Shown: one piece after another, positions 12,485 to 59,194 of the stretch
Layout: every line of letters begins with the position of its first letter
How positions within the stretch are numbered: position 1 is the first letter of the stretch
Source of the DNA: Candidatus Uhrbacteria bacterium CG_4_9_14_3_um_filter_41_35
GTDB lineage: Bacteria; Patescibacteriota; Patescibacteriia; UBA9934
Reading direction: 5' to 3'
Assembly: GCA_002791275.1 (NCBI GenBank)
Contig: PFWT01000009.1
Coordinates: 211,357 to 275,356, forward strand
Length of the DNA stretch: 64,000 nt
Notes under the pieces: generated by a model
Told to the model about the DNA's origin: nothing
Seen by the model: the letters and a program-made list of their open reading frames with translations, nothing else
Databases searched by the model: none
Made by a program: the position numbers and the translations under genes

Positions 12485-12925
12485 GATGATCAATGTCCTC
12501 AATTGTTTTGAGTTGAATTAATACTTATTTATAATGTGATTCCGAGTGAGATTCTTCGGTGTGATCCACGTTCACCTCAGAATGACGGTTTGTTTAGATT
12601 CTTCGCCGTGATTCACGCTAAGCTATGAATGACGAGGCGATGAGATTCTTCACCGTGATTCACGTTAGGTTCAGAATGACGCTTGGTTTAATGGGCTTAG
12701 CCTTGAACTTCGTCCATCACATATTCCGTCATCCTGAAGCTGGCGACGATTCACGCTGAAGGATCTCCTTCGCCCTGTGCTGAATCGACATTCGCTTAGT
12801 GATTCAGTAATGAGATTCTTCGGTGTAGTTCACGTTCACCTCAGAATGACGGTTTTGTTTGATTTTGTCGGTGTGGTTCACGCCAAGGTCTGAATGATGG
12901 TTTAGTGGCTGTATAGCTTCTCCGA
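12485..12925. repeat. Array of a composite REP/MITE-like repeat family (locus 1)
   Basis: Contains at least four forward units (~GAGATTCTTCGCCGTGATTCACGTTAGGCTCAGAATGACGG) and one diverged inverted unit (CCGTCATCCTGAAGC..CACGCTGAAGGATCTCCTTCGCC). The same family occurs at 18.85-19.6 kb, 26.87-27.17 kb and 58.88-58.99 kb. Confidence 0.8.
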
Positions 12926-12974
12926 TGTTGTAAAAAATAAATCGCAATCTCTGTATGCAAAAAATACTAACGAA

Positions 12975-13008
12975 CTAAGACTGAGTCGCATCTGCAACTC
13001 AGTCTTAG
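12975..13008. repeat. Perfect 12-bp-stem hairpin (CTAAGACTGAGT ... ACTCAGTCTTAG) adjoining the repeat array
   Basis: Inverted repeat seen directly in the sequence. An extended 24-bp-stem version sits at 59144-59194, next to another array copy. The downstream flank TAATAAAAAACTCC is shared by both. Confidence 0.7.
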
Positions 13009-13024
13009 ATAATAAAAAACTCCA

Positions 13025-13055
13025 AAATCAAATCAAATCAAATCAAATCAAATCG
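13025..13055. repeat. (AAATC)n microsatellite, about 6 units
   Basis: Directly visible as aatcaaatcaaatcaaatcaaatcaaatc. Confidence 0.8.
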
Positions 13056-18734: not shown

Positions 18735-18849
18735 GACCAGTTTTCTGGTCTTATAGCTATCAGAGTATTTGAGCTAGCCCTGAAGTAATGCTGAATTTAT
18801 ACAATTCACCTTATTTTTTTGTATTTGTTTGTTACCGTCAATTGTTATC

Positions 18850-19615
18850 CGCCAGCCTGAAGCGAACGCTGACTTACGCTGAAGGATCTTTTTTGTTTTG
18901 TGTTTAATCGACATTTACTTAGTAATCCAACACTGAGATTCTTCGGTGTGATCCGTGTTCACCTCAGAATGACGAGGCGATGAGATTCTTCGCCGTGATT
19001 CACGTTAGGCTCAGAATGACGGTTTGGTTTATTTGGTGTAATTGTATTATTTTGACCCGCACCCATACCGTCATCCTGAAGCGAGCGACGACTCACGCTG
19101 AAGGATCTCCTTCGCCCTGTGCTGAACCGACATTTACTTAGTAATCCAACACTGAGATTCTTCGCCGTGATTCACGTTCACCTCAGAATGACGATTTGGT
19201 TAGATTTAATAGGCTTAGTTTTGAACTTCATCCTTCTTCTCATACCGTCATCCTGAAGCAAGCGTTGAGTTACGCTGAAGGATCTCCTTCGTTTAGCCGA
19301 ACCGGCATTTACTTGGTGATTCAGTAATGAGATTCTTCGCCGTGGTTCACGCTAGGCTCAGAATGACGGTTTTGTTTGCTGTATTTTAATGAATTGTCCC
19401 ACACTCATACCGTCATCCTGAAGCGAGCGCTAACTTACGCTGAAGGATCTCCTTCGCCCATTACTAAACCGAGACTTGTTTACACTGTAACTCAACACTA
19501 AGATTCTTCGGTGTGGTCCACGTTCACCTCAGAATGACGGTTTAATTAGATTCTTCGCCGTGATTCACGTTAGGCTCAGAATGACGATTTTATGCGTCTT
19601 CTAGCTACCCCACTG
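18850..19615. repeat. Array of the composite REP/MITE-like repeat family (locus 2, about 4 modules)
   Basis: The module is an inverted unit (ccgtcatcctgaagcgagcg..cacgctgaaggatctccttcgcc), a conserved linker (ctgtgctgaaccgacatttacttagtaatccaacact) and then 1-2 forward units (gagattcttcgccgtgattcacgtt.ggctcagaatgacgg). It is repeated several times. Confidence 0.8.
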
Positions 19616-19642
19616 TTGTAAAAAATAAGACTCCATAACATA

Positions 19643-26869: not shown

Positions 26870-27170
26870 AACACTGAGATTCTTCGCCGTGATTCACGTC
26901 AGGCTCAGAATGACGGTTTGATGAGATTTTTCGACGTGGTTCACGCTAGGTTCAGAATGACGAGGCGATGAGATTCTTCACCATAGTTCACGTCAGGCTC
27001 AGAATGACGAGGTGATGAGATTCTTCGCCGTAATTCACGTCAGGCTCAGAATGACGGTTTGGTGTGATTGTGTGGTTTATACATTCATCACCATCTCAAA
27101 TAAACCGTCCACCACTCATTTCGTCATCCTGAAGCGAGCGTCAAATTATGCTGAAGGATCTCCTTCGTTT
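26870..27170. repeat. Array of the REP/MITE-like repeat family (locus 3): four tandem forward units with a 47-bp period, plus one inverted unit
   Basis: Four roughly 47-bp units (gagattcttcgccgtgattcacgtcaggctcagaatgacgg + ~8-nt linker), then an inverted copy at ~27121-27166. Located upstream of rpsB. Confidence 0.8.
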
Positions 27171-27550
27171 TTGTGCTGAACCAACATTTATTAAATGAAT
27201 AATAAAAAGCAAAAGCGGTAGGTGGAAAATTCCAAACCTACCGCTCGATGTAGTCCGCCCTATGCCTACCGGCAATTCCCCGGCGAACCGTGGAAGCCGG
27301 CGAGCAAGTTTTCGCCGGAGTCGAAGCCGTGGAAGCCGGCAATTAACTCGCCGGCTTCCGTTGTCTCCTCACCGCCAAAAGTGGCGGTGAGGAGGAAAAA
27401 AAACAATGAAAATTGAAAACTCATTGTTACTCCCTTTCTTTTTGCCGACAAAAAAATCCTTCGCTTACCTCAGGATTTCACTTTTGCCGACTTACCATAT
27501 TACCACGTTTTTAACGTTTTGTCAAGCTCCGCTTAACAAAACGTACTTAA

Positions 27551-27590
27551 AATAAAGGACCCCTACACTACGAATAGTGCAGGGGTCACA
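27551..27590 (-). terminator. Rho-independent terminator downstream of the GC-rich lipoprotein gene
   Basis: Hairpin gacccctacact...agtgcaggggtc with a CTTTATTTT tract on the reverse strand. Confidence 0.5.
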
Positions 27591-27594
27591 GCGC

Positions 27595-28605
27595 TTAATA
27601 CGTCGCACCCACGTATGCGACGTTAAGCGCGTCGTAGTCCGTGCCGTTGGCGTACGCCCACGGCCGGACTTTGAAGCTCTGGCTCCCGCCGGTGACATAC
27701 ATGTCACCGACGAGGGTCATGTCGTTCTCCACCATGTGGCGCCAGACGCCATGGTGGAGAGCGAAGCCGTTGACGATGATCTGGTCATCGTCAGCGGCTA
27801 CCATAACCACGCAGGGATCCGTCATCCCTGCGTAGAGGCCCCACTCCAAAAAAGTGGGGTCCTCCCAGTTGTACCACTGGGAGTCGTCTTGGACGACCCC
27901 CAGCTTGTCGGTAAGAGCCAAGAACAAACGGAGCTGGGTCACTCCGTCTGCGATAAACTCTGCGGTGTCAACGCAGAGTTTGACGCGCATGTCGTCCGGC
28001 ACAGACGAGGTGCAACCCTCGTCCACCGCACCGTCGCAGTCGTTGTCGAGGCCGTCGTCGCAGACTTCTGCGAACGACGGGTTAACGGCTGCGCGCATGT
28101 CGTCGCAGTCATCGGGACGGGCCACGTAACCAGCTGGCTGGTTACACGCCACAATAGTTACGGCGTTTCCGCCGTAACTGTCGCCGTCGTTGTCTCGGTA
28201 CCAGATCTTGGTACCGACCGCGCCGACATCCACCGTGCCGTCGCAGTTGTTGTCGATGCTGTCGCAGACCTCGGTGGCGCCCGGGTAGATGTTCGGGTTG
28301 GCGTCGTTGCAGTCGACGCCGGCAATGAAGCCGTCGCCGTCCGCGTCCGTGCCGGCGTCCGTGCCGGCGTCCGTGCCAGCATCTGTGCCGGCGTCCGTGC
28401 CGGCGTCCGTGCCGGCGTCCGTGCCAGCATCTGTGCCGGCGTCCGTGCCGGCGTCCGTGCCAGTACCGCTGTCGGTACTGGCAAAATACCCGATCCCACC
28501 TGAAGTGGGATTGGGCGCCCCGCCACAGCCCGTAAGGGCCATGACAAGGGCGAATTCAAACATGCACTTTCGCATGAATCCTCCTTTTTGAGTGCACTTC
28601 TGCAC
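27595..28605 (-). CDS. GC-rich lipoprotein with (GTDA)n tandem repeat and Cys-rich 'putative metal-binding' DCDD/CDGxDNDCDG domains
   Basis: Lipobox LTGC, at least ten GTDA repeats, and two copies of a CNDANP...PGATEVCDSIDNNCDG / CDDM...FAEVCDDGLDNDCDG motif (the myxobacterial-type Cys-rich repeat). The antisense ORF 27577..28503 is compositional noise. Confidence 0.55.
   Translation of the reverse strand: MQKCTQKGGFMRKCMFEFALVMALTGCGGAPNPTSGGIGYFASTDSGTGTDAGTDAGTDAGTDAGTDAGTDAGTDAGTDAGTDAGTDADGDGFIAGVDCNDANPNIYPGATEVCDSIDNNCDGTVDVGAVGTKIWYRDNDGDSYGGNAVTIVACNQPAGYVARPDDCDDMRAAVNPSFAEVCDDGLDNDCDGAVDEGCTSSVPDDMRVKLCVDTAEFIADGVTQLRLFLALTDKLGVVQDDSQWYNWEDPTFLEWGLYAGMTDPCVVMVAADDDQIIVNGFALHHGVWRHMVENDMTLVGDMYVTGGSQSFKVRPWAYANGTDYDALNVAYVGATY
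28323..28470. repeat. 12-nt period tandem repeat (ggcgtccgtgcc)n, about 12 units, encoding (GTDA)n
   Basis: Directly visible in the sequence. Minor variants agcatctgtgcc occur. Confidence 0.85.
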
Positions 28606-28935
28606 TCGGTTTCAAGATTCTCGGAAATCAGCAGAATTTTGAATTCTGCATTATCCCTTTAAACCCACAATCTAGTACTTTGACTATAGGCTCCAAGCGA
28701 TTTTCGTTATTCTGGGACTTTAATTACTTCTATATTCCCTTTTTATAACGACCTACCATAATAGCATAAAATTGTCTTTCTGTCAAGGTCTTAGCTAAAT
28801 AAATACTCTAATCTTAGCAAAAAAAAGATACTCAGAATCTCTGAACATTTATCACAAACCGCGCAATTTTTACAAAAAAAAGACGCCTCTCATTTGAGAA
28901 GCGTCGAAGTGATGATCCATTGACTGCGCTTCAGC

Positions 28936-29583
28936 CTAATGGATCGGATCACCAAACGCGTAAGCGGGCAGCCCGCTTAGCGTAAAGTCAGTGAGCGCCC
29001 CGTCGGCGCTCCGGTCGTCGAACGGGAGGGAGGACTGTGGAACAATCCTCGCGTGCTCGATTTGAACACTTCCGTCTTCACGGAGGTGTTCAAGAGTGAC
29101 GTCTCCGAGGAGCGAGCGCTCCTCGGAGAGGCAGTGCCGGACGGTGTTACCCGTCCAGCAGAATCCGTTCACGATCACACCCTCGTTGGGTGTGATCGTG
29201 AACGGTGCGCTCGAGCACCGCTTCATCCCGCCCGTTCCGGGCGGAATGTTCTGAGCGACGAGGGCGTAACTGCCCTCGTCGTAGAACGTTGCGCCACCAT
29301 CCAGCTCCCGCTGGGTGATGGCGAAGAGGTAGACGTCCGTCGTCACCTCCTCCCCACCGACGCGCTGCGCGCCGGTGAAGCAGATGTAGGCCGCGCCGGC
29401 GTCAGTGCCGGCGCCGTTGCCGTTGCCGTCGGTGCCGGCGCCGGTGTCGTTGCCGGTGTCCCACGTGCCGGTGGTGCCGTCATTCGGCACCATCACGCAA
29501 CCGCCCATAAGGGCGAAAAGAATCATAAACTTCATTTTAACTCCTTTGGCCAGAAACTGGCCGTTGGTTTTCGGACTACCCAA
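28936..29583 (-). CDS. GC-rich lipoprotein with Gly/Thr/Asp/Asn-rich low-complexity linker (hypothetical)
   Basis: The MKFMILFALMGGC lipobox lies after the first in-frame Met, so the true start is probably around 29538. The T/G/D/N-rich stretch is followed by a globular region. GC3-rich codon usage. Confidence 0.45.
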   Translation of the reverse strand: MGSPKTNGQFLAKGVKMKFMILFALMGGCVMVPNDGTTGTWDTGNDTGAGTDGNGNGAGTDAGAAYICFTGAQRVGGEEVTTDVYLFAITQRELDGGATFYDEGSYALVAQNIPPGTGGMKRCSSAPFTITPNEGVIVNGFCWTGNTVRHCLSEERSLLGDVTLEHLREDGSVQIEHARIVPQSSLPFDDRSADGALTDFTLSGLPAYAFGDPIH

Positions 29584-29616
29584 TACTGCCTATGCAGTTC
29601 ATTGGGGAGTCCGCTT

Positions 29617-29666
29617 GCAGGACTCTTAAAATCTATAAATAATTTTATAAACTTTAAGAGTCCTGC
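29617..29666. promoter_or_regulatory. 16-bp perfect inverted repeat (ttgcaggactcttaaa / tttaagagtcctgcaa) around an AT-rich spacer, upstream of the 28936-29583 gene
   Basis: Seen directly in the sequence. No T-tract follows on either strand, which favours an operator over a terminator. Confidence 0.3.
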
Positions 29667-30000
29667 AAAACAACAGAAGAACTTATCATCAACTATCACC
29701 CTTGTCAATAGCTTAATCTTTTTCAACTCTTCCTTTGGTGACGTGCAACATACATCACTTTTATTTTACCCAGGCATCGTGTTTTTGTTTCAGTCGATAT
29801 AACAACATTTTCAGTGTATCCTGCGTAAATTTGATGTATGTTACCAGTCGTAACAGCACCAAAGAAAGAGTTAATTTTTAATAGAACATTTTCAAAGTTC
29901 TCATCGAACATTAAATTTCTTTAATATTCAGTGAAAAATTTAAAGGTGTGGAGCCGGGAAGAATGATTTCACTCATCTTCCCAGCTCCTAGGAGGAGCGC

Positions 30001-30900
30001 TTACTCGCGATCCGCGTGGCTGTTCCACAGCCACGCGAGGTTAGCACTCAGCTCGAGGCGCGTCACAGGCAGTGCCTGGTGACGCGTCCCCTGCAAGCCG
30101 GCGAAAACGCCAGGCTGCAGGGTGAGCTGAAGCTCGCTCCCGACCGGGAGCGAGTACCAGAGGCCACCGTGGCCTCCGATACTCGCTCCGGTGTAGCTCC
30201 AACCTTTGCCGAGACCGGAGTGGTTACCAACCACTCCGGCGTAAAAGCCGAGGTCATTCGACTCCTGTGACCAGTAGGTCACGGAGTCGAATGACCCTCC
30301 GACGTGGTCGGGGCCGAGCTCAAGGCTCGGGATGAAAAGGTGGCCCACCTTGGCCCCCTCCCATCCCCAGATCACTCCCGTCCGGAGTGATCCTTGGACC
30401 GCTCCGGTGGCGCCGGCGATGGGCTGGCCGAAGCCGGCGCCGAGGCCGGCGCTCCAGCCGGCAACCATCCGTCTGTCATCCACGCGCCCGTTAAGCGCGT
30501 AGATGGCGGCGCGGTTACTTGCCACCCCGTCGCCGAGATTGGCGACGTCGGCCTCGAGCTGACCGATTCGCACCAAAAGTGCGGTGCGCTCAACCATCAA
30601 TTCCTCAAACTGTTCCACGATGTCGTGGAACTCCTGACCAGCATACCGGTCAAGTTTTCCGAGGTACACTCGGGTTTCGTTGAGCTTCCGCTCAACGGCC
30701 CCGAGTTGCGCCCGAACGGCACCGATGTCGGTGCTGTTCGTGACCGAGGTTTGCACCTCCGTCACTTCCTGCGTCGCCGGAGCGACGCAGGGGTTCACAC
30801 AGTCCTCCGGGCCGCCAGCGAAAGCGCTGGTGGCCGGAGCGATTACGATCATTACGAAGGCCATAACGGCCTTCGCGGACTTCCTCATTGTGGCCATCAT
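30001..30900 (-). CDS. GC-rich secreted protein: signal peptide, coiled-coil, Gly/aromatic-rich C-terminal domain (hypothetical)
   Basis: Signal peptide MIVIAPATSAFA, a heptad-like region (LEADVANL...), and a C-terminus with alternating G/W/Y/S β-strand-like segments. The antisense ORFs are noise. Confidence 0.45.
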   Translation of the reverse strand: MMATMRKSAKAVMAFVMIVIAPATSAFAGGPEDCVNPCVAPATQEVTEVQTSVTNSTDIGAVRAQLGAVERKLNETRVYLGKLDRYAGQEFHDIVEQFEELMVERTALLVRIGQLEADVANLGDGVASNRAAIYALNGRVDDRRMVAGWSAGLGAGFGQPIAGATGAVQGSLRTGVIWGWEGAKVGHLFIPSLELGPDHVGGSFDSVTYWSQESNDLGFYAGVVGNHSGLGKGWSYTGASIGGHGGLWYSLPVGSELQLTLQPGVFAGLQGTRHQALPVTRLELSANLAWLWNSHADRE

Positions 30901-35373: not shown

Positions 35374-35817
35374 ATGGGTACCTTGGCGAAAAATAGAAAA
35401 GCACATTTTAACTACGAACTCCTCGAAAACTTCGAGGGTGGTTTAGTGCTCTCTGGCGCTGAAGTAAAAGCTGCAAAAAGAGGTCATATAAATATGAAAG
35501 GAGCCTTTTTATCGATCGTGAATAACGAGCTTTGGCTTAAAAATATGCATATCGGTAAATTCGCACCCGCTGGTAAGCAGGAAGACTATGTGCCAACTCA
35601 GAACCGAAAGGTTCTAGTTAAACGCCGAGAAATCAAGTCACTTACTGGAAAAGCTGATCAAAAAGGATTGACAATTGTGCCAATTAGTGTTTATACTAAG
35701 GGAGATTTGGTGAAGCTTGGCTTTGCTTTAGCGAAAGGGAAAAAGAATCACGAAAAGCGTGATGCGATCAAAAAACGCGACATTAGCCGGCACATTCAAG
35801 AAGAAATGAAGCGTTAA
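35374..35817 (+). CDS. smpB: SsrA-binding protein
   Basis: NRKAHFNYELLE...GLVLSGAEVK... with a basic C-terminal tail. It is immediately followed by the tmRNA gene. Confidence 0.9.
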   Translation: MGTLAKNRKAHFNYELLENFEGGLVLSGAEVKAAKRGHINMKGAFLSIVNNELWLKNMHIGKFAPAGKQEDYVPTQNRKVLVKRREIKSLTGKADQKGLTIVPISVYTKGDLVKLGFALAKGKKNHEKRDAIKKRDISRHIQEEMKR

Positions 35818-35884: not shown

Positions 35885-36274
35885 GGGCCTGCCAGGAATC
35901 GATGGCAGAATCAGACTACTTTTACAATCAAGTCTGGGGGTGTTCACCCAGTTATAGCCGGACACAAATGACTACACGCAAACGTATTCACACAGGCTCG
36001 TAACGCATTTAGCGTTCAAATGCCTGCTCTAGCACTCGCTTAATAGCTGAGGCTCATCAAACTCGCGACATCTACTAGTGAGATCTTGGTGTTATATAAG
36101 TAGATATGAGCCTTCCCTGCTGACTTTGGAAGAACTCAAGATTTGCAAGTCAGAACTATCCAACATTTTTTCTGCGCTTTATATGTTGGGTTGTAAATAA
36201 GCGCGGATAAACTTGTAAGCAATTGTTTGGGGGTCTCTGACCAGACGGGAGTTCAATTCTCCCCAGGTCCACCA
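35885..36274 (+). ncRNA. ssrA: tmRNA (transfer-messenger RNA)
   Basis: 5' GGGCCUG pairs with 3' CAGGUCC-A-CCA, including a G3·U70 wobble. A T-arm is present (gggagTTCAATTctccc). The internal tag ORF GCA AAC GTA...CTC GCT TAA TAG encodes ANVFTQARNAFSVQMPALALA with tandem stops. Adjacent to smpB. Confidence 0.8.
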
Positions 36275-46351: not shown

Positions 46352-49300
46352 CTATTTTACAGTTATCTCTAGCGCGTCAGAAAAGCTCTGAATGCTAGGA
46401 ACTTTCATTGAATTAATCATGATCGGTTCAACTGTATAAGTTCCCGGATTTGTAACTCTAACGTAATACTTGAAGTAATCACGGCTAGCGTTGTAGCTAC
46501 TAGAATCTGCAGTGAACTTAATTCTTTGACCATCAATTTGGTAAGGATATCGAATTGCTCCCTTTGTTGTATTATCACTATATCTATATGGTCTTGAGAT
46601 AATGCTCATACCGCTTGGAAGAACGTCGGTGATCTGATATTCACCTTCAACGGCATTTTCGATGAATTTAGGGTAAACTCGTACCTCAACAATTCCCCCT
46701 TCTTTAAAGGCATTTGTCTCTACCCCGTCCACGAAATACTTCCTATCTACATCCACATGACTATCATCTATTGAAACATCTTTTAGCGGGACTTCATAGT
46801 GACTTGTTACACCAAGATTTCCTTTAATGTCTAGTAACCGTATTGTGCGTCGCTGTTCCGGAGAAACGCTAATCGTGTGGGTTGAGCCTTTTTCAAGCTC
46901 TACGGTTTCTGTTTTACCATTTACCTCAACCTTAAAGCTCACTGCTCCAGGAACTAGAGTTGGTAGAGTTTTTCCAATAAAGATCGCTCTTTCTAGACTA
47001 ACAAGTCGCTCGTTTGATCTTGCAGTTGCAACATAATTCCATAAAGAATCTTTATGCTCAGCCTGTAATCCAGCTGCCAGCATTGAAGCTAGTGCCGAAG
47101 CTTCAAGAGTCTTATCTTTGTCATCCTCAACGTTAATTCGGATATAGTCTTCATAAGCCTCGCCATTTTCTGCCATGACTTCAGCATATAATGTTCTTGC
47201 ATTTTCTTTATCACCAATTTCCTCTAGCGCAAGCGCAATATAAAGTTTTTCTGTAACTGAAAGATCTTTGATTGCAGCCATATTTTGGATCTTCACAAGC
47301 ACTGGCTCGTTAAGTCCTGCTAATCCCCAAAGTGCCGTAGCAATTTCATCCGTATTCGATTTTTTATTTGCTACAACGTTATAGAAATAGCTCGCAAGCG
47401 CTTCTTTATCAACGTATTTTGCCCCAGCTACTGCTACTTTGGCGCTTAGCACAAGTTCACTGTCAGAATATGGTAGAAGTGAAATACCGCCGCCCTGTTG
47501 ATACAGTGACATATCTACTACATCACCAGTTTTAGGTTCTGCGAAATATGAATCAAGAAGATCCTGCCCGATTTGTCTGCTTAATTTTTGATCAACTCTA
47601 TCTCCATATCCCCATTTTAGTGAACGTAAACTGTTGTACAAACGTCCCTGATTTTCGTCAGAAAAGACAACTGTTGTGCGACCATCTTCCGCTCCGTCTA
47701 CAATCAGATCCTCACTACCAACAGCGAACTTTTGAATAGTTTCCATTAATCTTGATTCTACAACTGAAACTCTGAGTCGTAATGCGTCATTATAATCATA
47801 AGTTGAAGCTCCAAATGTAATACTATGCTCACCAAGTTTATCCGTAAGACTTGGTAGATCAAAGTATGTTGATTTGAAAGCTTTTCCATCCTTCGTCTCT
47901 TCAAGACCCAATGAATCTGACAACACGTTAAACGAGACAGTATCACCAGTTAAAAGTGCCTTACCAAAAGCTCTTACAGCAAAACTTGGCTTATCTGTGG
48001 TTAGATATTCGTCTGCAATAACCACATTAGCAAATATTGGTTTGGTAACTGGTAATTTAGTTACATCAAAACCTGCTTTGATGTCGCTTGAAATTGCCTG
48101 AGTTGTAATTCGCCAGGATGTAATATTGTCTGGCAAAGTGAAAGTAATTTCACCATTTCCGTTTTGATCTGTTTCCAAAGTTTTGAAGACAGCTGCATCC
48201 AAGAATGTTTCGCGAACACTTCCATCACCACCCTTGTCGTTATGAACATAAATATCGTTTGCAAGATAAGTGTGATATGTCTCCACATGGAAGTTGTATA
48301 CGTAAACCGGTTCATGTTTCCATTCGATTGAATCAATTCTCACCGGAAATCCTTCAGAGTTGATTAAAATATCTCCAACTTCAGCGTTTCCAATCACTTG
48401 CCAACCGCCGTTCATATAAACTTTGTGAACCGGAGTTACTTTAAGTGATCCGTTGATAATCATATATTCAGAAACATAGTGCTCAAAAGTTTCAAGAACT
48501 CGGCCTGGAACTAGTGTATTTGATTTTTCACTAAGTCTTGTGAGAATCATATCGCCAGCCTCTATATTCTCAATATTTTTCTTTGAGCCGTCTGCCATCG
48601 TGATCTGTGTTTCTCCTAAGAAGCAACCACCACCCTCGGCTCCACCCGGAATCGTTAATAATCCAGAATACTTATGAGAGAATGAATCGATTATTTCACC
48701 TCCTGGAACTGAAGCGTAAAGATTATCTAAGGTATTAACAGATTCGTTTGAAACCGCGTAATAAGCTTCGTCGACTACATTTACGTTTACGTTAGCTTTT
48801 TTCCCCGCGCCATTTTTATCTACAACTTTTACATTCAGTTTAACCTCTTCGCCCGGTAAATATTCTATTTTTTCAGTTTTTACCTGAATATTTAGTTCGC
48901 TATCCGCAGTATCTAGTTTCGCACCGCTGTAATTGAATTGGTTGCCTGCAATTTTGTATGTTTGTCCATCAAAATATACAGCCTTTAGCACAACGTTAGG
49001 TGCGTGTTTTTGTTCGAAGGTAAACGAATAATCTGCCGAAGAATCAACTTCGTAGGCCCGCAAACCTCTTTGAAGCTGATAGTATAAGAATTTATTTTCA
49101 CCATCTTGAACTCGTTCCTCATTATTTTGTAGCTCAAACTTTGCAAGATCGCCTAGTTTATAGGTCATATCTTTATCAAAGTTTTTTAAGAAGTAATAAT
49201 CACTACTGTATGCAGATCGATATTCAATTGGTGCGTATGCATAAGATGTAGCTTTGTTCATTCTGCCCTCGGCATCGACTACACTGATATTTACTTTGTA

Positions 49301-51943
49301 ACTTTTATCCTGTGTAATTGGGAAATTGTAGTGGTATTCACCGTTACTATCCGAGGTACCACTGAAATTTCCGATCTTATTTTCAATTTTATTATATCTA
49401 TAGGTTTTTCTAACAATTTTATTGATAAAATCGTAATATTCACCAGTTTCAACCCTATTGTATGTGATTTCGATAATGTCTCCTTCAATCCGCAAATCAG
49501 AAACAAGTTCGCCTTCACCACCTGCAAGATCAACGGACCTAACTGTCGCGTTAACTAAAGCAGTTCCGTTATTCCTGATTACCTCCTGATCAATGACGGC
49601 GTTTGCATTGTAAACATTTACGCGTGAGTATTCATTAATTTCTGCAACTTCTGAATTAACTGGACTAACAGATAGAGTCACACTGTTAACCAGGGGACAG
49701 TATGAGCTAGTTAAATTACAGGTTGAGATAACAGGAGTGTATGAAACACTCATCTTTCCGAACTCATCTGTTTTCAGTACCTTATCTACTGCTGATTTTG
49801 AAGTTCCAGAAACACGAACTTTAAATTCTGTATCTGGTAGTGGTGTTCCCTCAAAAAAGTTTGCAGAAATATCAAACTTTACATCTTCGCCAGCAAACAT
49901 AGCAGCCTTCGCTGGTTGAATATCGATACTATAAGCGGGTTTCGTGTAAGTTTGAACGTTGATATAACTACTCTGGATCAAATTGTCACCAACGAAAAAT
50001 TGAAGGTCGTAGTAGCCAGGTGTTGTATTCTCGAGATTAATCGAACCTTCGAAAATTCCATTATTCAAGATTATTTCCTGTTCCTGCAAAACAACATAAT
50101 TGTTATAAAAATCCCTATAACCATTACTTACGAGTTTCACGTGAACTGAATCTGTAGCTTTTAAATCACGATTCTTTACAAATCCCCAATATTTTATTTG
50201 ATCGCCAGGGTGGTACAATGATCTGTCGGTATAAATATACTTCCAATAATCAGATGCAGAGGTCGATGTATTATTATAGTAATAACCATTAAAACGGTTA
50301 AGTACCATAATTAATTCATCATTTCCAGCTTTGATGCTCATGATTTTTTTAAACGCATCTTGGCTGTTAGCATCGATAAGCTTTTCAGTTGCAAAAGTTG
50401 CGATACCAGTACTATTTGTGGTTGCTGTTGTATTATTTTCAGTGAAAGTAAGCTTCGCAGAGACCGTTGGTTGATCTGATTTTACATTATTTACCCAAAC
50501 AAGTGTGTCGGTTTCAGTTACCGTTGCGTAAGCTGAAAGATCCGTAACCTGAATAAATGCTTGTTTATCAAATCGGCTCGCTGACTTATTTTCGAGGACG
50601 TAAAAACCTTTTGGTAAAGACTCTGGCAAGACGAGAAAATGAATCCCGTTATTTACTTCACTAATTGTTTGTATTTCAAGAGTTGCGGTGAATATGCTAG
50701 ACATTTTTGATGTATCTACCAAAAACGCAGATTTTTGGTAGACTGACCAGTCTGGCACTGACATTTTGTCTGAAAGATCTGAAATAAAATCAGTTGAATT
50801 GTTGTATGCGAAAATTTCAACTTCAACTTTTTTTGCTTCTTCGCCGTACGCATAAACTGGGATTGCAATAGTATCTTCAGTTGAATATTGAAGTTCATTT
50901 TCAATAAATGAGACCTTCTGGCGATCATGTTGATTGGCATTATGGGCGCTTGATAATGTTTCAAATTGAAACACGTAATCTTCACCTAGAGTATTTTGAG
51001 AACCAACAACATGTGAAGCTCCGCTAACCGTAACGGTGTACACTGTCCCTTCTGCCAATATTTGAGGTACAAAAACAACTGTTTGACCATGTGTTTCAAA
51101 CCGACCATTCACTTTTGGTGAAATTGTAATGTGATTTTCTACATCTTCAACATTTTCGTGACTAAAAGTAACTTCAATCCCAGTTGAAAGTGGCACATTA
51201 CTTGAGTTCTTTCCTGGTAGCGTGTGTTTTACTTTAAAACTGTCCTTCACTTGAAAAGCCCAAGAATAATCTCTTTCAAAAGAAGTTCCATTTTCTGCAA
51301 TAAATGATGCTGAAATTTCAATATTATAAGTAGTATTGTTTTCAAGTGTCTTAATCGGTGTAACTTTAAAGGTGTGATCGTCGATTACCTCAAAAGTAAA
51401 TTCAGCTCGTGGGCTAAGCGAAATATTTTCTTTTAGTATTTCTGAATCCAAAGCCCCTTTGCTGGTGATAATAAAGCTGGTGTCCGCCTCGACTCCGGTT
51501 GAATCACCGCTTACTGGTTCAATTTCGAAATTATCCTGCGCGTAAGCAGGATCAAGAATCAAACGAGAAAACTCGCCAAATGGGCTAGATGGATTATTCC
51601 TTACTCCTGGCCAGTATTGAAATGTTGTGGCCACAATTGCAACGATTAACAAGCTAGAAACACCAACAACAACTCGCTGGTGGTGAAAACTTGCGAAAAA
51701 CGACATTATTTGCTTATTCATACTTTTTTCTGTTGAAGATGCTCTTTCGGTTCGTCTTGCCCGCAATATGTCCTGTTCTAGCTTTTCTTTGAAGTTAGAA
51801 GATGCGAGATGCGAATCCTGAGCATGCGTTATTAATTTATCTCTTACATTCAATAACGCACAAAGCTCAGGATCATTACAATCCTGCATTTGTTCCTTTG
51901 CCTTTAGAGCTTTTTCAAGCTTTTTTGCTTTTTTATTAAACAT
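46352..51943 (-). CDS. Giant (1863 aa) anti-sigma-factor-like membrane protein with extracytoplasmic Ig/MG-domain array, Hint/BIL domain, alpha-2-macroglobulin domain and thioester-less TED-like domain
   Basis: An N-terminal roughly 110-aa cytoplasmic segment (C-x5-C) precedes a TM helix (VVVGVSSLLIVAIVATTF). Many β-rich repeats follow. The Hint domain runs GGG|CFLGETQI...VYNFHVETYHTYLANDIYVHN. The A2M signature is RETFLDAAVFKTLETDQNGNGEITFTLPDNITSWRITTQAISS (cf. FPETWLW...FTLPDSITTWR). The TED-like region (LYQQGGGISL, LWGLAGL) has GYGD where the thioester CGEQ is expected. The start overlaps the ECF sigma gene stop by 8 nt. Confidence 0.7.
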   Translation of the reverse strand: MFNKKAKKLEKALKAKEQMQDCNDPELCALLNVRDKLITHAQDSHLASSNFKEKLEQDILRARRTERASSTEKSMNKQIMSFFASFHHQRVVVGVSSLLIVAIVATTFQYWPGVRNNPSSPFGEFSRLILDPAYAQDNFEIEPVSGDSTGVEADTSFIITSKGALDSEILKENISLSPRAEFTFEVIDDHTFKVTPIKTLENNTTYNIEISASFIAENGTSFERDYSWAFQVKDSFKVKHTLPGKNSSNVPLSTGIEVTFSHENVEDVENHITISPKVNGRFETHGQTVVFVPQILAEGTVYTVTVSGASHVVGSQNTLGEDYVFQFETLSSAHNANQHDRQKVSFIENELQYSTEDTIAIPVYAYGEEAKKVEVEIFAYNNSTDFISDLSDKMSVPDWSVYQKSAFLVDTSKMSSIFTATLEIQTISEVNNGIHFLVLPESLPKGFYVLENKSASRFDKQAFIQVTDLSAYATVTETDTLVWVNNVKSDQPTVSAKLTFTENNTTATTNSTGIATFATEKLIDANSQDAFKKIMSIKAGNDELIMVLNRFNGYYYNNTSTSASDYWKYIYTDRSLYHPGDQIKYWGFVKNRDLKATDSVHVKLVSNGYRDFYNNYVVLQEQEIILNNGIFEGSINLENTTPGYYDLQFFVGDNLIQSSYINVQTYTKPAYSIDIQPAKAAMFAGEDVKFDISANFFEGTPLPDTEFKVRVSGTSKSAVDKVLKTDEFGKMSVSYTPVISTCNLTSSYCPLVNSVTLSVSPVNSEVAEINEYSRVNVYNANAVIDQEVIRNNGTALVNATVRSVDLAGGEGELVSDLRIEGDIIEITYNRVETGEYYDFINKIVRKTYRYNKIENKIGNFSGTSDSNGEYHYNFPITQDKSYKVNISVVDAEGRMNKATSYAYAPIEYRSAYSSDYYFLKNFDKDMTYKLGDLAKFELQNNEERVQDGENKFLYYQLQRGLRAYEVDSSADYSFTFEQKHAPNVVLKAVYFDGQTYKIAGNQFNYSGAKLDTADSELNIQVKTEKIEYLPGEEVKLNVKVVDKNGAGKKANVNVNVVDEAYYAVSNESVNTLDNLYASVPGGEIIDSFSHKYSGLLTIPGGAEGGGCFLGETQITMADGSKKNIENIEAGDMILTRLSEKSNTLVPGRVLETFEHYVSEYMIINGSLKVTPVHKVYMNGGWQVIGNAEVGDILINSEGFPVRIDSIEWKHEPVYVYNFHVETYHTYLANDIYVHNDKGGDGSVRETFLDAAVFKTLETDQNGNGEITFTLPDNITSWRITTQAISSDIKAGFDVTKLPVTKPIFANVVIADEYLTTDKPSFAVRAFGKALLTGDTVSFNVLSDSLGLEETKDGKAFKSTYFDLPSLTDKLGEHSITFGASTYDYNDALRLRVSVVESRLMETIQKFAVGSEDLIVDGAEDGRTTVVFSDENQGRLYNSLRSLKWGYGDRVDQKLSRQIGQDLLDSYFAEPKTGDVVDMSLYQQGGGISLLPYSDSELVLSAKVAVAGAKYVDKEALASYFYNVVANKKSNTDEIATALWGLAGLNEPVLVKIQNMAAIKDLSVTEKLYIALALEEIGDKENARTLYAEVMAENGEAYEDYIRINVEDDKDKTLEASALASMLAAGLQAEHKDSLWNYVATARSNERLVSLERAIFIGKTLPTLVPGAVSFKVEVNGKTETVELEKGSTHTISVSPEQRRTIRLLDIKGNLGVTSHYEVPLKDVSIDDSHVDVDRKYFVDGVETNAFKEGGIVEVRVYPKFIENAVEGEYQITDVLPSGMSIISRPYRYSDNTTKGAIRYPYQIDGQRIKFTADSSSYNASRDYFKYYVRVTNPGTYTVEPIMINSMKVPSIQSFSDALEITVK
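48240..48625 (-). other. Hint (Hedgehog/intein-like) / bacterial intein-like (BIL) domain embedded in the giant protein
   Basis: An N-terminal Cys follows GGG (CFLGET). C-terminal block HTYLANDIYVHN is followed by Asp rather than Cys, Ser or Thr. This pattern favours a BIL-type domain over a canonical intein. Confidence 0.6.
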
Positions 51944-58879: not shown

Positions 58880-58990
58880 ATTCAACAATGAGATTCTTCG
58901 CCATGAATCATGCCAGGCTCAGAATGACGGTTTAATTAGATTCTTCAATGTAATTCACGCCAGGCTCGGAATGACGGTTTGGTTCGTCGT
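58880..58990. repeat. REP/MITE-like repeat family (locus 4, two forward units)
   Basis: gagattcttcgccatgaatcatgccaggctcagaatgacgg and a second diverged unit. These are followed by hairpins at 59028-59055 and 59144-59194. Confidence 0.75.
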
Positions 58991-59143
58991 CTAGCTTGTC
59001 CGGTTTGTCGATAAAAAACACAGCGAGCGGGAGACCGCATGGGGTCTCCCGTACACCTTGACCTTGATATAAGAATGGCCGCACACGGCCACACGTTTGT
59101 TAATATAACTCTGCAATCCCTGTGAGCATAAAATGCTCACAAA

Positions 59144-59194
59144 CTAAGACTGAGTTGCAGATGCGACTAAGTCGCATCTGCAACTCAGTCTTAG
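59144..59194. repeat. Perfect 24-bp-stem hairpin (CTAAGACTGAGTTGCAGATGCGACT-a-AGTCGCATCTGCAACTCAGTCTTAG)
   Basis: Directly visible. It is an extended version of the hairpin at 12975-13008 and is likewise followed by AATAAAAAAACTCC. Confidence 0.75.

What the first reader, a model, noticed from the sequence alone, without database searches (positions are those of the whole stretch)
12485..12925. Novel composite REP/MITE-like repeat family forming intergenic arrays at four loci
A roughly 40-bp unit (GAGATTCTTCGCCGTGATTCACGTYAGGCTCAGAATGACGG) occurs as tandem forward copies. It is combined with diverged inverted copies (CCGTCATCCTGAAGCGAGCG..CACGCTGAAGGATCTCCTTCGCC) and a conserved linker. These build about 200-bp modules repeated several times per locus. 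The four loci are 12485-12925, 18850-19615, 26870-27170 and 58880-58990. All are intergenic, placed at operon boundaries: after the small-basic-protein ORF, between fpg and eno, upstream of rpsB, and after the RND gene. Forward and inverted units can pair into long imperfect hairpins. Such arrays in a streamlined genome suggest a functional role, such as mRNA stabilisation, termination, a nucleoid-protein binding site or a small-RNA family, or else an active MITE. They are not CRISPRs: at locus 3 the period is about 47 bp with about 8-bp linkers.
Basis: seen in the sequence. Interest (0 to 1): 0.6.

Follow-up and report, generated by a model that had tools for sequence, protein, structure and literature searches.

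The report
CGTC-tagged REP hairpin arrays in Uhrbacteria
The repeats are real: they are a lineage-specific, unusually tandem and mosaic version of a known class of short bacterial hairpin repeats (CGTC-tagged REP elements), here filling gene-free gaps of a tiny candidate-phyla-radiation genome, so this is a new variant of a known kind, not a new kind.

Summary
The window holds 16 well-conserved 42-nt units (plus one degenerate copy), all on the + strand, and 6 diverged inverted units. They lie at the four stated intergenic loci, with a 47-nt period where tandem.

Read on the opposite strand, each unit is C-CGTC-ATTCT-GA-[bulged stem-loop]-GA-AGAAT-CTC. That is the signature of the CGTC-tagged REP super-family (Di Nocera et al. 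2013, PMC3733652): an unpaired CGTC tag, a stem opening with A-T and T-A, a 3-nt tail, and no linked transposase.

A covariance model trained only on elements from other phyla recovers all 16 forward and 5 inverted units, and nothing else in 64 kb. The same frame occurs in at least 119 stretches of very diverse bacterial genomes, with strong covariation of the inner stem.

The host is a Candidatus Uhrbacteria (CPR) lineage. Fifteen further arrays were found in the same or related populations.

Unusual for the class:
- head-to-tail tandem arrays;
- mosaic modules of 165-210 bp (inverted unit, linker, 1-4 forward units, linker);
- a conserved end cap;
- a frequently adjacent 45-nt palindrome.

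The arrays sit between predicted terminators and the next promoter. The most likely reading is non-coding, self-propagating hairpin DNA of the BIME/NIME type. Function and mobilising enzyme remain unknown.

The parts
12548..12901 (-). Array 1. Forward (T1) units at 12548-12589, 12595-12636, 12642-12683 and 12812-12853, plus a degenerate copy at 12860-12901. One inverted (T2) unit at 12725-12767 and linker A at 12768-12811. The strand given is the CGTC (folding) strand of the T1 units.
12902..12940 (+). Right-end cap of array 1 (ttagtggctgtaTAGCTtctCCgatGTTGTAAAAAATAA). It is conserved with the caps of arrays 2 and 4.
   Evidence: seen in sequence
12975..13008 (.). Short version of the companion palindrome P (CTAAGACTGAGTCGCA-TC-TGCAACTCAGTCTTAG), followed by an (AAATC)6 microsatellite at 13025-13054.
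18849..19588 (-). Array 2. Degenerate T2 at 18849-18891. T1 units at 18935-18976, 18982-19023, 19154-19195, 19329-19370, 19500-19541 and 19547-19588. T2 units at 19067-19109, 19244-19286 and 19409-19451. Linker A segments at 18892-18934, 19110-19153, 19287-19328 and 19452-19499.
19589..19640 (+). Right-end cap of array 2 (tttatgcgtcttcTAGCTaccCCactGTTGTAAAAAATAAgac).
26876..27205 (-). Array 3. Four tandem T1 units at 26876-26917, 26923-26964, 26970-27011 and 27017-27058 (47-nt period). A 61-nt linker B follows, then T2 at 27120-27162 and a terminal linker-A-like segment at 27163-27205.
58890..59020 (-). Array 4. Two tandem T1 units at 58890-58931 and 58937-58978, and a right-end cap at 58979-59020. 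It has no T2 unit.
59146..59192 (.). Full companion palindrome P (AAGACTGAGTTGCAGATGCGACT-a-AGTCGCATCTGCAACTCAGTCTT), 170 nt to the right of array 4. The same element lies next to 7 of the 19 arrays examined.

Best explanation
These loci are mosaic arrays of a lineage-specific family of CGTC-tagged REP elements (repetitive extragenic palindromes) in a Candidatus Uhrbacteria (CPR) genome.

**The unit.** It is a hairpin of about 40 nt that folds on one particular strand: CGTC tag, 5-bp stem ATTCT/AGAAT, a 2x2 GA/GA internal loop (tandem G.A), a 3-bp stem (GCC/GGC or GGT/ACC), a 4-nt bulge, a GTG/CAC stem with a triloop, and a CTC tail.

**The second unit type.** T2 has a compensated outer stem (ATCCT/AGGAT) and sits in the opposite orientation. 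With a 44-nt linker it makes a REPIN-like hairpin of about 130 nt with the next T1.

**Most likely mechanism (inferred, not shown).**
- The elements are non-coding, non-autonomous hairpin DNA.
- The hairpin forms on single-stranded DNA and is recognised in trans by a structure-specific enzyme. This enzyme is unknown for the whole CGTC class and is not encoded next to the repeats.
- Once seeded, arrays grow locally by duplication of 47-nt units and of multi-unit modules.
- They persist because they lie in the untranscribed gap between one gene's terminator and the next gene's promoter.
- Any host benefit would be secondary, as argued for E. coli BIMEs and Neisseria NIMEs. Possible examples are a protein or gyrase binding site, a barrier to read-through, or 3'-end protection of read-through RNA.
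For: **Identity**
- The frame is almost invariant in 58 distinct units: C6 58/58, G7 57/58, T8 58/58, C9 56/58, the A-T and T-A opening pairs 57/58 and 58/58, GA/GA 55-58/58 and 51-58/58.
- This matches the defining features given for CGTC REPs in PMC3733652.
- Peptides listed there for intragenic CGTC-1 copies (VIPAKAGI, SFPRKRES) back-translate to GTC-ATTCCCGC-GAAA-GCGGGAAT-C. That is the same CGTC-ATTC...GAAT-C frame; this step is my inference.
- Model R1, trained only on 52 elements from other phyla, finds all 16 T1 units on the - strand (E 1e-10 to 7e-3) and 5 T2 units on the + strand (E 7e-7 to 5e-5). It finds nothing else in 64 kb.

**Structure is selected**
- T1 cells are 95% paired, against 26-52% when the partner column is slid.
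- Two subfamilies differ by double compensatory changes at two pairs.
- T2 compensates the outer stem (T-A to C-G).
- In the super-family the covariation score is 0.332 against 0.094 in shuffles (0/500), and at most 0.117 when slid.

**Strand specificity**
- Non-canonical inner positions are 81 purine.purine against 1 pyrimidine.pyrimidine on the CGTC strand.
- That strand folds better (Wilcoxon p = 7e-7) and has G.U pairs 38 against 19.

**DNA rather than mRNA**
- The arrays lie distal to predicted terminators of the flanking genes and proximal to promoter-like sites of the next gene.
- Super-family singles show no sense/antisense preference (27 against 25) but avoid divergent promoters (5 against 20 convergent).

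**No linked gene**
- No transposase domain was found in 55 window ORFs.
- No gene family recurs near the 119 hits from other phyla.
- E. coli RayT finds no homologue in about 1.2 Mb of fetched DNA.

**Local growth**
- L142 carries three copies of a 271-nt two-unit module.
- Array-specific loop variants occur, for example CGTCAGG in array 3.

**Abundance**
- There are 5 arrays in about 74 kb of this genome.
- Fourteen more non-redundant arrays occur in related metagenome contigs.
Against: - Mobility is not demonstrated. Six strain copies of 18-21 kb are more than 99.97% identical, with no unit gain or loss.
- No enzyme candidate was found, and only a fraction of the genome could be read.
- Single units fold no better than shuffled sequence by energy alone (z -0.9 to +0.6). 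Within the local family the covariation amounts to essentially one event (two subfamilies), and a few recombinant copies break the pairing.
- The local G.T against A.C count (24 against 15) does not settle the strand.
- Array polarity is biased. The gene on the cap side converges on the array in 14 of 17 cases. The T1 CGTC strand lies on the G-rich, major coding strand in 15 of 18 arrays. This fits a read-through RNA role as well as a replication-linked DNA process; the two are confounded.
- Terminators and promoters are consensus predictions only.
Confidence: 0.7

Rival explanations
1. The arrays act at the RNA level. They are transcribed by read-through from the gene on the cap side. The T1 hairpins, in CGTC sense, then protect the 3' end from exonucleases or reinforce termination, as shown for some E. 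coli REPs.
For: - In 14 of 17 arrays the gene on the cap side points into the array, so T1 would be read in the folding (CGTC) sense.
- The T1 CGTC strand coincides with the major coding strand in most loci.
- Tandem G.A motifs and G.U pairs are compatible with RNA.
- The literature argues that many REPs are transcribed (PMC3733652).
Against: - In all four window loci a predicted intrinsic terminator lies between the stop codon and the array. The array is 125-650 nt from the stop codon.
- Super-family singles show no sense bias (27 against 25).
- There is no Rfam match, even at E up to 10.
- Half of each mosaic (T2) is in the opposite sense.
Confidence: 0.15
2. The arrays are double-stranded DNA binding platforms for a host protein, such as a gyrase, an IHF/HU-like protein or another nucleoid protein, or a transcription factor. 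They would act as supercoiling relief sites or insulators between transcription units, as proposed for BIME-1 and BIME-2.
For: - The arrays are placed between the terminator of one unit and the promoter of the next.
- The T1 apex GTGAATCAC is a near-perfect duplex palindrome conserved in 46-56 of 58 units.
- The regular 47-nt spacing is compatible with arrayed binding.
Against: - The apex is not conserved in the super-family or in T2.
- Compensatory changes and the purine.purine asymmetry point to a folded single strand, not a duplex site.
- No binding protein can be named from the data.
Confidence: 0.1
3. The T2-linker-T1 module is a classical MITE. It would be a deleted DDE-type insertion sequence with 40-nt terminal inverted repeats, moved by a transposase such as the IS30-like gene just beyond the right end of the window.
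For: - The module ends are inverted repeats (ACCGTCATCCTGA...TCAGAATGACGGT) around a core of about 44 nt.
- An IS30-like transposase C-terminus lies just outside the window (L148 2-157).
Against: - No target-site duplication flanks the modules.
- Forward units also occur alone and in head-to-tail runs without a partner, as in array 4.
- The same frame occurs as single short hairpins in many phyla.
- No array adjoins the IS30-like gene in the fetched DNA.
Confidence: 0.04
4. The arrays are CRISPR or CRISPR-like.
For: The repeats are regularly spaced, with partial dyad symmetry.
Against: - Only 5-7 nt lie between the 42-nt units, so there are no spacers.
- The units diverge by 10-25%.
- No cas gene is present among the window ORFs.
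Confidence: 0.01

Closest known systems
CGTC-tagged REP super-family (Di Nocera, De Gregorio and Rocco 2013, BMC Genomics 14:522; families CGTC-1 to CGTC-4)
   Same: - An unpaired CGTC tag at one end.
- A stem that opens with A-T then T-A (ATTC...GAAT).
- A short unpaired 3' tail.
- Multicopy and intergenic, mostly downstream of genes.
- Inverted partners that can form larger hairpins.
- No adjacent transposase.
- A model trained on other phyla recognises the window units.
   Different: - The published families have continuous 8-9 bp stems, 4-5 nt loops and a CCA tail. In them head-to-tail dimers are 'negligible' and clusters 'rare'.
- Here the stem is interrupted by a GA/GA loop and a 4-nt bulge, the tail is CTC, head-to-tail runs of 2-4 units are the rule, and every copy seen is in a cluster.
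- The host phylum (CPR/Patescibacteria) is not among the five reported.
Neisseria dRS3 repeats and NIMEs (Neisseria intergenic mosaic elements); dRS3 is equated with CGTC-1 in PMC3733652
   Same: They are CGTC-type hairpins clustered in large intergenic mosaics and interleaved with other repeat families. Here, likewise, T1/T2 units are interleaved with linkers A and B, an end cap and palindrome P.
   Different: - The unit sequence and structure differ.
- No sign was seen here of the phage or IS integration into the repeats that is known for dRS3 (that knowledge is my own, not tested here).
- Head-to-tail 47-nt tandems are not a NIME feature.
E. coli REP/BIME and the REPIN-RAYT systems (GTAG-tagged REPs)
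   Same: - Short imperfect hairpins with a 4-nt tag at the foot.
- Two unit types in opposite orientation joined by conserved linkers (compare Y/Z REPs with L, S, l, r motifs).
- Inverted doublets that form a long hairpin (REPIN).
- Location at the 3' ends of genes.
   Different: - The tag is CGTC, not GT[AG]G.
- No RAYT was found: Pfam on 55 ORFs and an E. coli RayT search.
- Tandem direct repetition is uncommon in BIMEs.
Rickettsia palindromic elements RPE-4 and RPE-6 (equated with CGTC-4 and CGTC-1)
   Same: They have a CGTC-tagged hairpin frame and also occur in a small, reduced genome.
   Different: RPEs are often inserted in frame within genes. All copies seen here are intergenic.
MITEs such as Correia elements or Coxiella QMITEs
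   Same: They are small, non-coding, inverted-repeat-bounded and multicopy.
   Different: No target-site duplication and no related autonomous IS were found, and the basic unit is a single 40-nt hairpin.

Membership tests
CGTC-tagged REP super-family | Unpaired CGTC (rarely TGTC or CCTC) tetranucleotide at one end of the hairpin | tested here: met
   In 58 distinct T1 units: C 58/58, G 57/58, T 58/58, C 56/58. All 21 distinct T2 units also carry CGTC.
CGTC-tagged REP super-family | Stem that begins with complementary A-T then T-A pairs | tested here: met
   Pair 10-42 is A-U in 57/58 units and pair 11-41 is U-A in 58/58. T2 begins ATCCT/AGGAT.
CGTC-tagged REP super-family | Continuous 8-9 bp stem and a 4-5 nt loop | tested here: not met
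   The stem has 5 bp, a 2x2 GA/GA loop, 3 bp, a 4-nt bulge, then 3 bp and a 3-nt loop. The authors themselves note that bulged variants may have escaped their survey.
CGTC-tagged REP super-family | Short unpaired tail (consensus CCA) at the other end | tested here: inconclusive
   A 3-nt tail is present, but it reads CTC (C 57/58, T 57/58, C 43/58).
CGTC-tagged REP super-family | Multicopy, mainly intergenic, between convergent or co-directional genes and rarely between divergent ones | tested here: met
   Nineteen arrays were examined, all intergenic: 6 convergent, 4 co-directional and 2 divergent among those with both neighbours known. For super-family hits the counts are 20 convergent against 5 divergent.
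CGTC-tagged REP super-family | Head-to-head dimers predominate; head-to-tail dimers are negligible and clusters rare | tested here: not met
   Head-to-tail runs of 2-4 units with a 47-nt period occur at all four loci. T2/T1 pairs are tail-to-tail across 44 nt and head-to-head across 40-60 nt.
CGTC-tagged REP super-family | No dedicated transposase gene adjacent | tested here: met
   There is no transposase domain in the window ORFs, no gene recurs beside 119 hits from other phyla, and no RayT homologue was found. Only part of the genome was available.
CGTC-tagged REP super-family | Recognised by a sequence-plus-structure model built from other members | tested here: met
   Model R1 (52 elements, none from this lineage) finds 16 T1 and 5 T2 units and nothing else in 64 kb. 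The T1 matches are partly circular, because the training set was fished with T1's own termini. The T2 matches are not.
REPIN-RAYT system (GTAG REPs) | GT[AG]G tag 5' of the hairpin foot | tested here: not met
   The tag is CGTC.
REPIN-RAYT system (GTAG REPs) | A single-copy RAYT (Y1 HUH transposase) gene flanked by the repeats | tested here: not met
   No Y1_Tnp hit appears among 55 window ORFs. A phmmer search with E. coli RayT finds nothing in the window or in the other fetched loci. The rest of the genome was not testable.
Classical MITE (DDE transposon derivative) | Terminal inverted repeats plus a target-site duplication, and a related autonomous IS | tested here: not met
   Inverted ends exist, but there is no flanking duplication. 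No related IS was found; the IS30-like fragment beyond the window has no array beside it.
CRISPR array | Repeats separated by unique spacers of similar length, with cas genes nearby | tested here: not met
   The linkers are 5-7 nt and there are no cas domains.
Any curated RNA family (Rfam 15) | Match at or near the gathering score | tested here: not met
   There is no match at the loci at gathering score. At E up to 10 only far-sub-threshold long-hairpin matches (microRNA and snoRNA models) appear.

The most novel reading that the evidence does not exclude
The invariant frame CGTC-AYYCT-GA...GA-AGRRT-CTC recurs almost letter for letter in genomes of at least 15 phylum-level lineages. Its inner stem covaries freely, its purine.purine mismatches lie on one strand only, and it has no linked transposase. 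This pattern would fit a selfish repeat less well than the recognition site of a conserved, still unidentified host factor acting on single-stranded DNA or RNA. The polar Uhrbacteria arrays would then be a functional amplification of that site, for example as replication- or transcription-boundary elements in a minimal genome.
Probability: 0.1. Interest if true: 0.75.

Novelty: new variant of a known kind. Interest (0 to 1): 0.35.

Why it matters
**Extension of a known class.** The finding places CGTC-tagged REPs in the candidate phyla radiation. These genomes are about 1 Mb and usually regarded as streamlined, yet about 2.5% of this window is repeat array.

**An uncommon architecture.** It documents head-to-tail tandems and polar mosaics with an end cap and a companion palindrome. 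The published survey treats such arrangements as negligible.

**A wider distribution.** The side result is of broader interest. One exact-frame search returned more than 119 hits across very diverse phyla. These show strong covariation and a one-strand purine-mismatch signature. The distribution is much wider than the five phyla reported in 2013.

**An open question made sharper.** What recognises and spreads CGTC elements, given that no transposase travels with them?

**Practical points.**
- Such arrays break metagenome assemblies.
- They can be mis-called as small ORFs.

Tried and rejected
- **Literature search for the 11-mers CTCAGAATGAC and GTCATTCTGAG.** It returned only unrelated primer and vector hits.
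- **Exact 22-mer scan of species genomes.** It gave 0 hits, so this lineage's own family is not in the representative genomes. The degenerate frame was needed.
- **Rfam, at gathering score and at a permissive threshold.** Nothing relevant was found.
- **Strain comparison for gain or loss of units.** The copies are near-clonal and give no information on mobility.
- **Energy z-scores of single units.** They are not distinguishable from shuffles. The structural support comes from covariation, not from stability.
- **Within-array against between-array unit identity.** The values are 0.825 and 0.828 (permutation 1181/2000), so there is no general signal of in-situ duplication. Only specific cases show it (L142, array 3).
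- **G.T against A.C counts in the local family.** The counts are 24 and 15, which is inconclusive.
- **Orientation of super-family hits relative to local GC skew.** The count is 45 of 99, so there is no bias.
- **Gene-neighbourhood clustering around 119 hits from other phyla.** No recurrent gene was found.
- **RAYT search with E. coli RayT.** It gave no hit, but a single-sequence search has limited sensitivity.
- **attC-like reading of GTTAGGC in some units.** It was rejected because the motif is absent from the super-family and from other subtypes.
- **Hammerhead-like reading of CUGAG...CGAAG.** It was rejected because the core UGA is missing and Rfam finds no ribozyme.

Full report
**1.

Tandem Repeats Finder reports 47-nt-period arrays at 12549-12690, 19501-19590, 26875-27056 and 58887-58980.

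A profile built from the units finds:
- 16 full copies, all on the + strand (E 1e-16 to 1.5e-12);
- one degenerate copy;

All four loci are intergenic:
- Locus 1 lies between metK and a 123-aa lysine-rich ORF. It is upstream of that ORF, not after it.
- Locus 2 lies between fpg and eno, which converge.
- Locus 3 lies between a MopE-motif gene and rpsB.
- Locus 4 lies between an RND pump gene and a convergent 239-aa ORF.

**2. Anatomy**

Parsing the arrays gives a polar mosaic:

[T2 inverted unit] - [linker A, about 44 nt, conserved: cttcgccctgtgctgaaccgacatttacttagtaatccaacact] - [1 to 4 T1 units, 42 nt each, joined head to tail by 5-7 nt] - [linker B, 40-60 nt]

This mosaic is repeated up to four times. 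At loci 1, 2 and 4 it closes with a conserved cap (..TAGCT..CC...GTTGTAAAAAATAA). A T2-linker A-T1 segment folds into a long hairpin, with z -6.4 on the + strand and -7.3 on the - strand.

A second repeat, a 45-nt perfect palindrome (AAGACTGAGTTGCAGATGCGACT-a-reverse complement), lies on the cap side of arrays 1 and 4. It also lies beside five arrays elsewhere.

**3. What the unit is**

Read on the - strand, T1 is CAAAC-CGTC-ATTCT-GA-GCC-TAAC-GTG-AAT-CAC-GGC-GA-AGAAT-CTC.

Across 58 distinct units from the window and related contigs:
- the CGTC tag, the five outer pairs and the GA/GA internal loop are almost invariant;
- 95% of cells pair in this structure, against 26-52% when the partner column is slid;
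- two subfamilies (GCC/GGC and GGT/ACC) differ by double compensatory changes at two adjacent pairs.

T2, read on the + strand, has the same frame with a compensated outer stem: CGTC-ATCCT-GA-AGC...GCT-GA-AGGAT-CTCC.

This frame has three parts: an unpaired CGTC tag, a stem opening with A-T and T-A, and a short tail. It is the definition of the CGTC-tagged REP super-family of Di Nocera et al. 2013 (PMC3733652). That family includes:
- Neisseria dRS3;
[quoted passage not shown] According to that paper the family has no associated transposase.

**4. Relatives elsewhere**

An exact 22-mer of the unit is absent from 185,579 species genomes. My own estimate of the chance expectation is about 8.

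By their record titles the hosts span:
- Acidobacteriota, Omnitrophota, several Patescibacteria and Bacteroidota;
- Planctomycetota, Chloroflexota and Clostridia;
- Melainabacteria, Elusimicrobiota, Nitrospirota, Neisseriaceae and others.

The inner 17-23 nt differ from hit to hit but keep pairing. For 52 elements of one length class:
- the covariation score is 0.332, against 0.094 in shuffles (0/500) and at most 0.117 in slid controls;
- where the inner helix is not Watson-Crick, it is purine.purine in 81 cells and pyrimidine.pyrimidine in 1 on the CGTC strand;
- that strand folds better (p = 7e-7).

So the CGTC strand is the one whose fold is conserved.

A covariance model built from these 52 foreign elements finds all 16 T1 units (- strand), 5 T2 units (+ strand) and nothing else in the window. 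The T2 matches are an independent membership test, because T2 did not match the fishing pattern.

**5. Host and abundance**

Window proteins are identical to proteins of Candidatus Uhrbacteria MAGs named CG_4_.... To my knowledge these come from Crystal Geyser groundwater.

Six strain copies of the region are more than 99.97% identical and show no array polymorphism.

The same genome has a fifth array 8.7-9.2 kb left of the window, in the same orientation (L150).

A family-specific pattern found 22 metagenome stretches. These give 14 further non-redundant arrays with the same T1/T2 mosaic. Some show in-situ higher-order duplication, for example three copies of a 271-nt module in L142.

The arrays make up about 1.6 kb (2.5%) of the window.

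**6. Context and polarity**

In all four window loci a predicted intrinsic terminator lies between the neighbouring stop codon and the array. At loci 1 and 3 a promoter-like site lies between the array and the downstream gene. The arrays therefore occupy the gap between transcription units.

Two observations bear on polarity:
- The gene on the cap side converges on the array in 14 of 17 cases.
- The T1 CGTC strand lies on the G-rich, major coding strand in 15 of 18 arrays.

These observations are confounded. They fit either a replication-linked single-strand DNA process or a read-through RNA role.

Super-family singles show no sense/antisense preference (27 against 25). They avoid divergent intergenic regions (5, against 20 convergent). 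They show no GC-skew bias (45 of 99).

**7. No linked enzyme**

- Pfam scans of 55 window ORFs show housekeeping genes and no transposase.
- Clustering of ORFs around the 119 foreign hits finds no recurrent neighbour.
- E. coli RayT finds no homologue in about 1.2 Mb of fetched DNA.

This agrees with the published statement that CGTC REPs lack a dedicated transposase. Only part of this genome could be inspected.

**8. Verdict**

The finding is a real, abundant repeat family. It is not a new kind of element. It is a lineage-specific variant of the CGTC-tagged REP class, organised like BIMEs or NIMEs.

Several traits are unusual for the class:
- head-to-tail tandems;
- a stem interrupted by GA/GA;
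- a polar mosaic with a cap and a companion palindrome;
- a CPR host.

I found no paper linking REPs to CPR or Patescibacteria in the searchable library.

The most likely mode of existence is non-coding hairpin DNA recognised in trans on its CGTC strand and expanded locally. The mobilising factor, and any host function, remain unknown here as for the whole class.

Noticed in passing
window 12975-13008 and 59146-59192; also L126, L129, L133/L136, L143, L144: A second repeat family is present: a 45-nt perfect palindrome (AAGACTGAGTTGCAGATGCGACT-a-AGTCGCATCTGCAACTCAGTCTT). Its flanks are also conserved: a small hairpin gtgagcat-aaaa-tgctcac before it, and an A-rich tract, an (AAATC)n or (AAACC)n microsatellite and a CCAAGCCTTGG-type hairpin after it. 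It sits on the cap side of 7 of the 19 REP arrays examined and scores as terminator-like on the - strand.
   Followed up: partly
It comes in two inner-stem classes: a plain Watson-Crick hairpin, and a GAA/GAA purine-mismatch helix (for example ACGAAGCGTAGCGAAGT). This is far wider than the five phyla reported for CGTC REPs in 2013. Twenty of 135 hits lie inside long ORFs.
   Followed up: partly
L148 2-157 (about 80-240 nt beyond the right end of the window): This is the C-terminal end of an ORF resembling IS30-family transposases (...ELKRVQRELNDRPRAVLEYYKPDEIF...); the resemblance rests on my own reading and was not tested. The two contigs fetched for this gene (L148, L149) both end about 0.6 kb beyond it, which suggests a multicopy IS there.
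   Followed up: no
window 46352-51943 (- strand): A 1863-aa alpha-2-macroglobulin-like protein (MG2, A2M_BRD, A2M and bMG10 domains) carries a Hint/intein-type insert at residues about 1102-1235 (PT-HINT 9e-13, Vint, Intein_splicing).
   Followed up: no
window 27577-30900: This is a GC-rich island (52% against 41% overall). It contains 12-nt and 48-nt tandem repeats (GCGTCCGTGCCG, 28343-28461) inside a gene with MopE-type metal-binding motifs (27595-28605, - strand). Long ORFs overlap on both strands.
   Followed up: no
L140, L144 and L150 (cap side of the arrays): Three of the 19 arrays lie directly beside what look like tRNA genes. I read tRNA-like T-arm and acceptor sequences by eye and did not run ARAGORN on them.
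   Followed up: no
window 27152-27167 and the 3' end of every T2 unit: The 3' end of T2 plus the start of linker A forms a small palindrome (GAAGGA-TC-TCCTTC). It competes with the outer stem of T2. At locus 3 it is followed by a T-run and scores as a + strand terminator-like site.
   Followed up: no
window 35885-36274 and 35374-35817: A tmRNA gene (Rfam 82 bits) lies directly downstream of smpB. ARAGORN did not report the tmRNA.
   Followed up: no
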